Shown piece by piece: positions 3,885 through 49,171 of a stretch of 64,000 nucleotides of DNA. Each line of letters begins with the position of its first letter. The first letter of the stretch is position 1. The stretch is from Eledone cirrhosa (Eukaryota). The stretch spans positions 8,990,001-9,054,000 of the forward strand of contig OZ024754.1 of NCBI GenBank assembly GCA_964016885.1, read 5' to 3'. The notes under the pieces are model-generated. The model did no database searches. It saw nothing but the letters and a program-made list of their open reading frames with translations, and was not told the DNA's origin. Made by a program: the position numbers and the translations under genes.

Positions 3885-4247
3885 AATATCAGATGACATT
3901 GGGATAAATTAATTTTTAATCTTGAATACATCACCTATATTTATCATCATTTCAAGACTAAACTTTTCATACGGAACTGATATAACATTGTTTATATTAG
4001 AATTACTGTGAAAAATTTCTTCAGAACTGTGTTTATCGGAAAAATTTCGTTTCCTCACCAGCCTAAATATTTACAAGATGATTTTGAATCTTAACTAAAA
4101 TTTGATCACAAAGAAGTTTGCATCATCTTCAGATCTTGACTGAGATCACAGTTGGGGGAAATATAGCAGAAGAAATATCTTCAGGAATATAATATATAAA
4201 ATAATACAAGAATAACATCTGTAAATTCAGTCAAGGGAAGAAGAAAC

Positions 4248-44745: not shown

Positions 44746-46040
44746 TCCTTTGTGCACGGACTTCTAGGTACCTTTTAATCCAATATAGATTCCACACACT
44801 TACACCTCCCTTCCACTACCACCCACACCACCTTTACTCTGTAAAGTTATATTGGTACCACAAAACATCCAGCTCACACTGGAAATTGATCGTGTAGGTG
44901 TCACGACAAAATGCACCCAGTCCACATTGTAAAATAGTCATGTAGGTTTCGTGACAAAAAGATCTTAGTCTGCACTGTATGAACAAGGCATGGTCACCTG
45001 ACCTAGCATTGCAAACAACAGGGCACTCGTTAAACCCATGCTAGCGTGGAAAAATGGATGTAAAGTGGTGATGATTATATATATATATATATTATTGTTT
45101 TAACTTCACCTGTTGCAAATTTTTTTATATTGTTTTTGTGAAAAAAAAACAATCTTTTTCGCACACACACACACATTATATGTATATATATATTTCTTTA
45201 TTGAGTTTCTACTTTGGGCACAAGGCCAGCGAAATACCTCAGTGCACCACTGGTACTTTATTTTATCGACCCCGTAAGGATGAAAGGCAAAGTTAACCTT
45301 GGTGGGATTTGAACTCATAATGGCAAGGGCCGTAACTCTTTGCATCAAAGCATGGCGTCCGAGCCTCTACCGATACTGTCAATCCACCGCCCTTGTATAT
45401 ATATAAATAGATAATCCCGTTCATTTCTCTTATAATATATATACATATATATAACGTTCTCTTTTTTTTTTTTGTTTTATTTCAAGTAACTTACAAGGGA
45501 TATTCTATGATTGACTAGAATCACTTCCAGTGTGTGTATTTATTTACAACATTGATATTCTACACCACATTCGTCATCTATGTGACACTTGTAATGTTAT
45601 TTTTACAACCAGGAATAAAATTGTTCTTGAGATATTCACTGCGAACCTGTACTTTCTCTATTTCTTGTTCGGACTTGGTATATATATATATATATAATAT
45701 TTATTTACTACACCACATTTTTCATCTGTGTGATATTTTTGTAATGTTATTTATACAACCGGGAATAAAATAATTCTTACCCTAACCCTTATTATTCACT
45801 GCGAACCTGAACTGTGTCTATTTCCTGTCTCACCATCTTCCATTCTTTCATCAATCTCTCATCATTAATTTCCATCAATTCCTGTCTCCTTTTCTATATT
45901 TTATATTTTCAAGGTATTTCAAATTTTTTTATAATTTTTACGTTTCTTTCGTTAATTTATTCAGTTTTATATTTAAGATATTTCTGAGTAACTTTTCCTG
46001 TATTTTCCGTCTAAATATTGTTTATATATATATATATATT

Positions 46041-46100
46041 TTTCATTCTGAGGATTGAAAGCAAAACCTTTTGCTTTTAAGAAACCACTGGTAAATGGAA
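46041..46100 (+). ncRNA. Type I hammerhead ribozyme with intact catalytic core, in a ~95-bp insertion unique to unit 6
   Basis: TTTCATT CTGAGGA TTGAAAGCAAA-ACCT-TTTGCTTTTAA GAAA CC-ACT-GG TA AATGGAA: 7-bp stem I, CUGANGA, 11-bp stem II, GAAA, short stem III, GUA cleavage triplet at 46091-46093. Confidence 0.8.
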
Positions 46101-46129
46101 TAATTGCCTTATGTTGTTTATTACATAAT

Positions 46130-46160
<31 letters not shown>

Positions 46161-47641
46161 GGAACAAGTAAGACCCCGACGGCTGAGCTCAAGCCGTTTC
46201 GACGGCTAATTCTGGACTTTGAGCTCAGCCGTCGGGGTCTTACTTGTTCCTATATATATATATATATACATAAACAATATTTAGAAGGAAAATACAAAAT
46301 ATAACTACTCCATTACCAAAGGTTTCTGGATCCCAGATAATAATGATATACGTCTTTTCCTTCGGAATTACCTAATACATATATATATATATATATATAT
46401 ATTTGTAATAAGGTTGCTTTGATGCGTCCATAGGCGGTATGCCGTTTGAGCACTCTATGCCCCTCGATGGAAAACGAAGAATCAGTGAAGCATCGAAACA
46501 ATTTATTACGTATTACAATTGTTTTTCCAGCGAAAAGCTCCAGGTGTGATCTATTCGCCAGAGAAACAATTGTAATACGTAATTGTGTTCCGATACATCA
46601 CTGATTTTTCGTTGTCCTGTAGGAGTCACGGTAAAAAGCACCCAGCATACACCGTAAATGTGGTTTGTGTTAGGAAGGACATCCGGCCATGAAAAAGAAG
46701 CCAGAAACAGTTCTGTGTGAGTAAGACATGGTCACCTGGCCTAGCATTGCCTTAAATGGGACAACCCGTCTAATCCAGGCTAACATGGAAAATGGCCATT
46801 AAATGATAACTATATGTTTTTGTGTGTGTGTAAAGCCCTGCAAATATACTTCCCACTAATTGTGTCTACAGGAATAACACAAGTCATGTTAGTGGGGTGC
46901 CTAGAGTAGCCATGTGTGAGGATCCCTTGACTGTTATCAAGCAATTGCACAGCATTTTCCCCTTCCAGGTAGAAAGAACTGTTACTCAAGGAACTGTCAA
47001 GTTACACATCTCAGGTCTCAGGCAATTACTATGTTAGAAAGTCCTATAAGAATGAATTTTGGGGAAAAGACTATAGGGAAGACCTCCGAAGAGATAAAAG
47101 GGTAAAATATATATAGAGCATGCTGGAATACCACTGCTCACATTGGAGAGTATTGCTCTGGACAGGGAAGATATCTACAGTTTACCAATATAGAAATATA
47201 AAATTTCCACTGTTAAATCTATCTCTGCTTCTTAAGTATTCTCTATTATCTCATACCGTTTCTTTCTTATTTCAGAATATCAGATGACGTTGGGATAAAT
47301 TAATTTTTAATCTTGAATACATCACCTATATTTATCATCATTTCAAGACTAAACTTTTCATACGGAACTGATATAACATTGTTTATATTAGAATTACTGT
47401 GAAAAATTTCTTCAGAACTGTGTTTATCGGAAAAATTTTGTTTCCTCACCAGCCAAAATATTTACAAGATGATTTTGAATCTTAACTAAAATTTGATCAC
47501 AAAGAAGTTTGCATCATCTTCAGATCTTGACTGAGATCACGGTTGGGGGAAATATAGCAGAAGAAATATCTTCAGGAATATATATATTTATAAAATAATA
47601 CAAGAATAACATCTGGAAATTCAGTCAAGGGAAGAAGAAAC

Positions 47642-49171
47642 ATGGAAAATAAATTGAGTGAGAAGAAGATTAAATGTGAAACATTGTCTGAAGATATTAC
47701 TAATCCAGAAGACATGCCAAACGATAGAGGAGAGAAGCCATATCACTGTGATATCTGTCGTAAATCATTCACTCAAAGTAGTACCTTAACTACGCACAAA
47801 CGTATACATACAGGTGAGAAACCATATGACTGTGATATCTGTGGTAAATCATTCTCTCGAAGTAATCATTTATCTAGACACAAACATATAGATACAGGAG
47901 AGAAGCCATATCACTGTGATATCTGTCGTAAATCATTCACTCAAAGTACTACCTTAACTACGCACAAACGTATACATACAGGTGAGATACCATATGACTG
48001 TGATATTTGTGGTAAATCATTCTCTAAATCGGATACATTAACTATTCACAAACATATACATACAGGAGACAAGCCGTATCACTGTGATATCTGTGGTAAA
48101 TCTTTCTCAGTAAGTGGTACATTAACTTCTCACATACGTAGCCATACAGGTGAGAAACCATTCCACTGTGACATCTGTGGTAAATCATTCTCGAGAAGTG
48201 ATCATTTATCTAGACACAAACGTATACATACAGGAGAGAAGCCATATCACTGTGATATCTGTGGTAAATCATTCTCAGTAAGTGATAAATTAACTTCTCA
48301 CAAATATACACATACAGGAGAGAAGCCATATCACTGTGATATCTGTGGTAAATCATTCACTCAAAGTAGTACCTTAACTACGCACAAACGTATACATACA
48401 GGTGAGAAACCATATGACTGTGATATCTGTGGTAAATCATTCTCTCGAAGTAATCATTTATCTAGACACAAATATATACATACAGGTGAGAAACCATATC
48501 ACTGTGATATCTGTGGTAAATCATTCTCTGAATCGGATACATTAACTATTCACAAACGTATACATACAGGAGACAAGCCGTATCACTGTGATATCTGTGG
48601 TAAATCTTTCTCAGTAAGTGGTACATTAACTTCTCACATACGTACCCATACAGGTGAGAAACCATACCACTGTGACATCTGTGGTAAATCATTCGCTAAA
48701 TCGGATACATTGACTATTCACAAACGTATACATACAGGAGACAAGCCTTATCACTGTGGTATCTGTGGTAAATCTTTCTCAGTAAGTGGTACATTAACTT
48801 CTCACAAATATACACATACAGGTGAGAAGCCATACTACTGTGACATCTGTGGTAAATCATTCTCTCACAGTGGTCACTTGACTAGACACAAACGTATACA
48901 TACAGGAGACAAGCCACATCACTGTGGTATCTGTGGTAAATCATTCTCTAAATCGGGTGATTTAACTCGTCACAAACGTATACATACAGGAGAGAAGCCA
49001 TACCACTGTGACATCTGTGGTAAATCATTCTCTGTATCGTGTGCTTTAACTATTCACAAACGTATGCATACAGGAGAGAAGCCATATCACTGTGATATCT
49101 GTGGTATATCATTCTCTGTATCAAGTAGGTTAACTAGACACAAATATACCCATACAGGTGAGAAACCATAA
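47642..49171 (+). CDS. C2H2 zinc-finger protein, copy 6, 509 aa, 17 fingers (finger 2 has H>D), uninterrupted
   Basis: 17 x 28-aa repeats running to the shared terminal TAA. Confidence 0.93.

What the first reader, a model, noticed from the sequence alone, without database searches (positions are those of the whole stretch)
46039..46135. Tiny mobile insertion that is essentially just an intact hammerhead ribozyme, in the sense direction of a ZNF gene
Seen: unit 6 alone has a ~95-bp insert in a (TA)n tract that folds into a complete type I hammerhead (stem I 46041-47/46094-100, CUGAGGA, 11-bp stem II, GAAA, near-palindromic ACCACUGGU stem III, GUA site) with an (ATA)n-like end. Known: Penelope-like elements and retrozymes carry minimal hammerheads with short palindromic stem III that often cleave as dimers. 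Inference: a young Penelope/retrozyme-derived insertion. It lies on the same strand as, and within the predicted intron of, one of only two uninterrupted ZNF copies, so it could cleave that pre-mRNA.
Basis: partly seen in the sequence, partly recalled or inferred. Interest (0 to 1): 0.75.

Follow-up and report, generated by a model that had tools for sequence, protein, structure and literature searches.

The report
Hammerhead stub of Hydra-clade Penelope retrotransposon
This 96-base insert is an exact copy of the tail end of an abundant jumping gene of a known group and carries a hammerhead (self-cutting RNA) motif, but it has no partner nearby and is predicted to misfold in its surroundings, so it is likely ordinary transposon debris that does not cut the neighbouring zinc-finger gene's RNA.

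Summary
The hammerhead motif is real and sits in only one unit of the ZNF array. It is not an element in its own right. It matches 96 of 96 bases at the 3' end of a 4.1-4.7 kb Penelope-like element of the Hydra clade (710-aa RT/GIY-YIG ORF, many intact copies). The motif has over 4,000 copies in the genome, and 21 of 100 sampled copies are about as short. Stem II covaries across sister subfamilies. The idea that it cuts the ZNF pre-mRNA is weak: stem III is the dimer type, no partner lies within 164 kb, stem I is predicted unformed in the host flanks, and the intron has no RNA support. One side result is new to my searches: the element carries the same kind of stub inside its own 3' UTR, missing from two older sister copies and damaged differently in two sublineages. 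This scan has already reported Hydra-clade hammerhead stubs from other windows of this genome. Verdict: a new family of a known kind, low interest.

The parts
46040..46135 (+). 5'-truncated 3' end (pLTR stub, short-end class) of a Hydra-clade Penelope-like element; both edges blurred by 1-2 bases shared with the TA tract
   Evidence: 96 of 96 identical to the pLTR of the ORF-intact copy L084; anchored match runs 10 nt upstream of C3 and 43 nt past the cut site
46041..46047 (+). Hammerhead stem I, 5' strand (pairs with 46094-46100)
   Evidence: sequence; descriptor; 97% of cells paired in alignment A2, partly fixed by the search pattern
46048..46054 (+). Catalytic core CUGAGGA (C3-G8 pair possible; position 7 varies G/A/T/C among copies)
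46055..46080 (+). Stem II, 11 pairs with a 4-nt loop; the first pair (U-A) is not a conserved pair in sister subfamilies
   Evidence: 5 of 11 pairs change on both sides; first pair unpaired in 17 of 34 rows; pairing probability 0.67-1.0
46081..46093 (+). GAAA, near-palindromic stem III (ACCACUGGU) and GUA site; predicted cut after 46093
   Evidence: self-duplex -8.2 kcal/mol, no fold alone
46094..46100 (+). Hammerhead stem I, 3' strand
46109..46128 (+). Small hairpin just before the short 3' end of the element
   Evidence: predicted fold; sequence kept in most sister-subfamily copies
46022..46039 (.). Left part of the host (TA)n target
46134..46160 (.). Right part of the host (TA)n target
47256..47275 (+). 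Acceptor-like pyrimidine tract ending in CAG, present in all 13 units; no RNA support
47594..49171 (+). C2H2 zinc-finger ORF of this unit (first ATG 47642; 16 fingers by regex)

Best explanation
The insert is the last 96 bases of a Hydra-clade Penelope-like retrotransposon, likely written into a (TA)n tract by target-primed reverse transcription that stopped early, and its hammerhead likely does not cut the host RNA. Shown: identity to the element's end, the element's anatomy (pLTR hammerhead, 710-aa ORF, 3' UTR, pLTR hammerhead), thousands of copies, two fixed 3' ends, TA targets. Inferred from what is known of EN+ PLEs: the GIY-YIG domain nicks (TA)n; the RT primes on the element's RNA at one of two sites, about 35-47 or 107-115 nt past the ribozyme cut site, here the short one; synthesis ends at a variable point, here 10 nt upstream of the core. 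Because copies run across the cut site, the template was uncut or re-ligated there. The ribozyme likely works for the element as a dimer between two pLTRs; alone in the ZNF unit it has no cis partner and is predicted to fold into competing hairpins.
For: 96/96 identity to L084. 4,167 exact 20-mer and 1,191 exact 65-mer matches, reversed controls 0. 24 of 150 listed protein hits have open frames of 708 aa or more; 19 of 20 fetched regions hold a 714-718-aa frame with the same start. AlphaFold model pLDDT 93; 8 of the first 8 Foldseek hits are telomerase RTs. Hydra motifs present (against PMC8557442 section 11). 3' ends of the first 100 copies: 55 short, 44 long, 1 other; 51 of 55 short ends run into TA; 23 of 23 head-to-head pairs have one short and one long end. 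5' ends of the same 100: 11 inside the hammerhead, 10 at 7-25 nt, 28 at 26-60 nt upstream of C3. 35 distinct loci have TA within 12 nt of stem I (overlapping rows merged by hand). Only 22 copies have a base other than A after GUA, against 4,151 that continue. No other family hammerhead in 164 kb. Stem I probability 0.02 or less with host flanks. A single minimal PLE hammerhead showed no cleavage in vitro (PMC4209133).
Against: No cleavage or RNA data were obtained, so 'likely inactive here' rests on folding models without tertiary contacts and on analogy. The parent's own pLTR also gives low stem I probability in the same model (0.0-0.26), so low probability does not prove inactivity. With only the TA tract upstream and the RNA ending just after stem I, stem I reaches 0.75. 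Stem III here has 3 pairs as a monomer, more than the 1-2 typical of dimer-only motifs, and some single animal hammerheads cut 6-22% in an hour or faster (PMC7229834). Pfam and PDB sequence searches did not recognise the ORF. The 100 copies are the first 100 of 4,167, all from one contig.
Confidence: 0.85

Rival explanations
1. The stub cuts this ZNF copy's pre-mRNA, as a monomer or by pairing its palindromic stem III in trans with the element's RNA, and lowers that copy's output.
For: Same strand as the ORF, upstream of an acceptor-like site kept in 13 of 13 units. Core and GUA site intact; stem III self-duplex -8.2 kcal/mol. Thousands of identical potential partners exist in the genome. In Xenopus, retrozymes are depleted from introns (bioRxiv 10.64898/2026.07.22.740005).
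Against: No cis partner in 164 kb; stem I is predicted unformed in context; exon 1 and the donor are unverified; present in 1 of 13 units, so no sign of retention; 4 other units also have full ORFs.
Confidence: 0.07
2. The stub is a complete copy of the RNA's front end: the RT primed in the leader pLTR and ran off the transcript's 5' end, so the stub's left edge marks the start of the element's RNA rather than a failure of the RT.
For: 49 of 100 sampled copies end within 60 nt upstream of C3, while the element runs on for 4 kb. Earlier scan notes proposed this for other families (e1-9939475, e1-10309617; unchecked notes).
Against: The ends are spread from inside the ribozyme to +62 with no single peak; per base they are no denser at 7-25 (10 in 19 nt) than at 26-60 (28 in 35 nt). 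About half of the copies extend further into 3'-UTR sequence.
Confidence: 0.2
3. It is a free non-autonomous unit (retrozyme monomer or SINE) built around the hammerhead.
For: 35 loci look like TA-flanked short units; a preprint derives animal retrozymes from PLE pLTRs.
Against: No tandem short repeats; the short copies have differing left edges; no private variant against the autonomous element.
Confidence: 0.04

Closest known systems
Hydra clade of C-terminal EN+ Penelope-like elements, including Hydra-1_Obim of Octopus bimaculoides (Craig et al. 2021, PMC8557442; seen: passages, section 11, supplement part 2 of 59 and supplement search passages)
   Same: RWK, DKT, CxCX5C linker, no CCHH, CxxC and CxH around E and N; (TA)n targets; canonical-order hammerhead with a palindromic 4-bp stem III and 1-nt loop (Hydra-1_Obim has acca-a-tggt); inverted 5'-truncated copies and a tail at one end only.
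   Different: A different family from Hydra-1_Obim (different stems I and II in File S2). Unit of 4.1-4.7 kb against under 3 kb; tail about 70 nt against the 30-40 bp given for PLEs; longer stem II; a second, damaged hammerhead inside the 3' UTR.
Minimal and palindromic-helix-III hammerheads of metazoan PLEs (Cervera and De la Pena 2014, PMC4209133; seen: parts 1-2 of 4 of the text)
   Same: Type I, long helix II, palindromic helix III, mostly single motifs from truncated PLEs, opposite-strand pairs 100-700 bp apart.
   Different: No G10.1-C11.1 pair (U-A here, often unpaired in sisters); stem I of 7 pairs; stem III present.
Metazoan non-LTR retrozymes (PMC7229834, passages; bioRxiv 10.64898/2026.07.22.740005, part 1 of 5 and passages)
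   Same: Type I hammerhead with short palindromic helix III; PLE kinship.
   Different: No tandem 200-400 nt monomers; this is the end of a coding element.

Membership tests
Type I hammerhead ribozyme | CUGANGA and GAAA boxes, three helices, NUH site, open helix I | tested here: met
   NUH rule from PMC4191386 passages
Type I hammerhead ribozyme | Covariation of helices among homologues | tested here: met
   Stem II: 5 of 11 pairs change on both sides; whole structure score 0.140 against 0.097 shuffled, 0 of 500; slid controls 0.069 or less. Stem III and part of stem I were fixed by the search pattern and test nothing.
Type I hammerhead ribozyme | G10.1-C11.1 closing pair | tested here: not met
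   U-A in the insert; unpaired in 17 of 34 rows. Many Hydra-clade motifs in File S2 also lack it.
Type I hammerhead ribozyme | Match to an Rfam hammerhead model | tested here: not met
Type I hammerhead ribozyme | Self-cleavage | not testable with these tools
   needs a bench assay
EN+ Penelope-like element | Single ORF with telomerase-like RT | tested here: met
   710 aa, YRDD at 346; Foldseek top hits TERT, E 4e-8; no Pfam RT hit
EN+ Penelope-like element | C-terminal GIY-YIG endonuclease | tested here: inconclusive
   VVY...YVG motif at 574 and Atlas neighbours carrying GIY-YIG; no direct Pfam or fold hit for this domain
EN+ Penelope-like element | pLTRs with hammerhead, partial tandems, inverted 5'-truncated copies, one-sided tail | tested here: met
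Hydra clade | RWK motif; DKG changed to DKT | tested here: met
   RWK 37, DKT 114, no DKG
Hydra clade | CxCX5C linker, no CX2-5CxxC, no CCHH cysteines between GIY and YIG, CxxC and CxH around E and N | tested here: met
Hydra clade | Insertion into (TA)n | tested here: met
   51 of 55 short ends run into TA
Hydra clade | Length generally under 3 kb | tested here: not met
   4,143-4,678 bp in 12 pairs; the paper gives this as typical, not as a rule
Hydra clade | Placement in the RT phylogeny | not tested
   Reference sequences were compared by eye only with the paper's alignment
Non-LTR retrozyme | Tandem non-coding monomers, each with a hammerhead | tested here: not met
   single copy in 164 kb; parent is coding

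The most novel reading that the evidence does not exclude
Stubs of this kind cut RNA in vivo once a second hammerhead is within reach. The element once inserted such a stub, sense, into its own 3' UTR; the two surviving sublineages then either disabled it under selection (GUG site in one; a mismatch next to the cut site and a non-palindromic stem III in the other) or keep it as an enzyme-only partner that cuts the terminal ribozyme without being cut. The same pairing in trans would let thousands of intronic stubs, this one included, be cut by the element's RNA.
Probability: 0.15. Interest if true: 0.6.

Novelty: new member of a known kind. Interest (0 to 1): 0.2.

Why it matters
As a single insert it matters little: such stubs are routine products of a described clade. 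The family is useful as material: a young Hydra-clade element with many intact ORFs and two fixed priming ends suits an in vitro PLE retrotransposition system, which PMC8557442 names as missing. The role of PLE hammerheads in vivo is still open there, and the self-inserted internal stub with two differently damaged lineages gives ready natural variants to test it.

Tried and rejected
DNA search of the genome with the 96-mer returned nothing (the tool skips very common words), so patterns were used. Rfam: no hammerhead. Pfam and PDB sequence searches missed the parent ORF. My first guess, the Nematis clade (recalled), was dropped after the motifs matched Hydra. No RNA holder listed; this says nothing on expression. 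Reads laid twice: the simple-repeat junction was skipped by the tool, so presence of the insert in other individuals, splicing and transcription stay open; the pile of read ends in the RAD run lies at an AATT and is likely a library cut. One search used a structure string off by one column and is void; one search replaces it. The 5' extents (unanchored) and the 3' classes (drop at a subfamily indel) are unreliable and are replaced; 5' extents above about 100 nt are under-called. A sharp truncation hot spot at the ribozyme edge was looked for and not found. Copies ending at the cut site: at most 22; an end followed by A would be missed. The internal stub's damage is not significant by itself: about 7 differences in 110 nt would hit one of about 12 critical positions roughly half the time (hand estimate). 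The bacterial promoter scan is irrelevant here. PMC12513265 passages hold nothing on ZNF exon structure. Supplements of the bioRxiv preprint were not seen and may list mollusc or Hydra-type families.

Full report
Observation. The motif is as described. My descriptor found it as the only hit on both strands of the window, against 0.01 loose and 0 strict hits per shuffled window in 200 shuffles. Rfam has no hammerhead match. The insert is at 1 of 8 homologous sites in the window and 1 of 12 anchor hits in 164 kb, where the array has 13 units. The flanks of this unit are 96-98.5% identical to the others, so the insertion is likely younger than most of the duplications. The host is an animal genome of 3.0 Gb; that it is an octopus-type genome is my inference from the zinc-finger arrays and the likeness to Hydra-1_Obim.

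What it comes from. A 20-mer of the motif has 4,167 exact matches and a 65-mer 1,191, with reversed controls at 0. A pattern for sister subfamilies gives 3,097 more. Longer copies lead upstream into an ORF. Of 150 listed protein hits, 24 have open frames of 708 aa or more, and 19 of 20 fetched regions hold a 714-718-aa frame with the same start. The unit is: hammerhead, about 260 nt, ORF (710 aa from ATG), microsatellite-rich 3' UTR, hammerhead; 4,143-4,678 bp in 12 pairs, and the two pLTRs are identical over 126 nt in 10 of 12. The insert equals the pLTR of copy L084 at 96 of 96 bases.

Clade. Pfam and PDB sequence searches miss the protein. The AlphaFold model (pLDDT 93, 107 sequences) has telomerase RTs as its first 8 Foldseek hits, and Atlas neighbours carry RVT_1 and GIY-YIG. 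The protein has RWK, DKT, YRDD, CxCX5C, no CX2-5CxxC, no cysteines between the GIY- and YIG-like motifs, and CxxC and CxH near the end. These are the features given for the Hydra clade in PMC8557442 (section 11). Its supplement lists Hydra-1_Obim from Octopus bimaculoides, (TA)n-targeting, with a hammerhead whose stem III is acca-a-tggt but whose other stems differ; by eye the proteins align closely. No tree was built, and the endonuclease fold was not confirmed directly.

How the stub arose. Among the first 100 of the 4,167 hits (all on one contig), 55 end at a short site, 44 at a long site about 70 nt further, 1 elsewhere; 51 of 55 short ends run into TA; all 23 head-to-head pairs have one end of each kind (two pairs are duplicates of one segment; one three-copy locus was left out). 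The ends lie about 35-47 and 107-115 nt past the cut site. The window's copy is short-ended. On the 5' side, 11 of 100 break inside the hammerhead, 10 at 7-25 nt and 28 at 26-60 nt upstream of C3; the window's copy breaks at 10. There is no peak at the ribozyme edge, and 35 loci have TA within 12 nt of stem I. 'Just the hammerhead' is therefore a common outcome. Only 22 copies have a base other than A after GUA, against 4,151 that continue (the latter includes GUG copies), so the template was uncut or re-ligated at this site. That the ends are priming sites of target-primed reverse transcription is inference from known EN+ PLEs.

Is the ribozyme conserved as a structure? In 34 distinct motifs (window, 4 young copies, 27 sister copies, 2 internal copies; 4 of 35 distinct central matches were dropped as identical to the window or 5'-truncated) 94% of cells pair, 7 pairs change on both sides, and the score exceeds all 500 shuffles and all slid controls. 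Only stem II is a free test, and related sequences can beat this control. The first pair of stem II is unpaired in 17 of 34.

Does it cut the ZNF RNA? Probably not. Stem III is palindromic (self-duplex -8.2 kcal/mol), the type thought to work as a dimer; a single minimal PLE motif did not cut in vitro (PMC4209133), although some single animal motifs do (PMC7229834). No second family motif lies in 164 kb. With 50 or more bases of upstream host flank, stem I pairing is 0.02 or less at all five nascent lengths tried; with only the TA tract upstream it reaches 0.75 at the shortest. The same model also gives low values in the parent, which limits this argument. An acceptor-like site at 47256-75 is kept in all 13 units; donor-like sites at 45914 and 45988 are read from the sequence only. 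Five of 13 ORFs run to the shared end and the other eight still encode 11-31 fingers, so this unit is not a rare intact copy.

Side result. The young element carries a second hammerhead 300-470 nt after the stop and 1.1-1.8 kb before the terminal one. It starts about 16 nt upstream of the core, ends at the short site and is followed by TATATA. Of 20 regions fetched around sister copies, 2 run unbroken from ORF end to terminal motif, and both lack it and have (TA)n there. It is thus likely a self-inserted stub of the window's kind. One sublineage has GUG at the site (721 and 151 matches with two patterns), which hammerheads do not cut (PMC4191386). Another keeps GUA (75 matches); of 30 inspected, 27 have a mismatch at the pair next to the cut site, 2 are truncated, 1 keeps the pair, and all 30 have a non-palindromic stem III. 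These are two events and chance decay explains them about as well as selection. Searches for Penelope-like + self-insertion + hammerhead gave 0 papers; Hydra clade + Penelope + ribozyme listed only PMC8557442; hammerhead ribozyme + Penelope + octopus the same.

Earlier scan notes on other windows of this genome already describe Hydra-clade hammerhead stubs, the hairpins behind the ribozyme and the one-long, one-short pattern; sequence look-ups found no note on this family. I reached the Hydra assignment from the paper before reading those notes.

Verdict: real motif, new family of a known clade, ordinary stub. Interest 0.2.

Noticed in passing
L084:6898 (also L033, L038, L039, L161-L190); absent in L193, L201: Internal, likely self-inserted hammerhead stub in the element's 3' UTR, with GUG in one sublineage and stem I/III damage in another; L072 and L073 also have a core change at position 6.
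   Followed up: yes
L084 pLTR, around 4080-4230: CCAGGA upstream of stem I is predicted to pair with UCCUGG in the long tail, enclosing the hammerhead and two hairpins. The window's stub lacks both strands.
   Followed up: partly
window 46161-46250: A 90-bp palindrome between TA tracts, at 6 of 8 homologous sites in the window; related sequence flanks unrelated loci (L002, L022). Likely a head-to-head stub of another element.
   Followed up: no
window 46469-46617: A second imperfect inverted repeat shared among units.
   Followed up: no
window and 50 kb each side: At least 13 tandem ZNF units; 8 have a frameshift or stop in the finger array, some shared between near-identical units. Real lesions or assembly errors not distinguished.
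   Followed up: partly
L007-L150, many loci: Many unrelated hammerhead families turned up by chance in the fetched loci, most with palindromic stem III and a non-G-C first pair in stem II; L095 has a 310-bp tandem array.
   Followed up: no
L034, L042, L043, L049: ORFs of other Hydra-like families lie nested next to copies of this family.
   Followed up: no
L087:4073 and 8678: The two pLTRs of one copy differ at 3 of 126 positions, unlike 10 of 12 pairs; does not fit a single circular template unless changed later.
   Followed up: no
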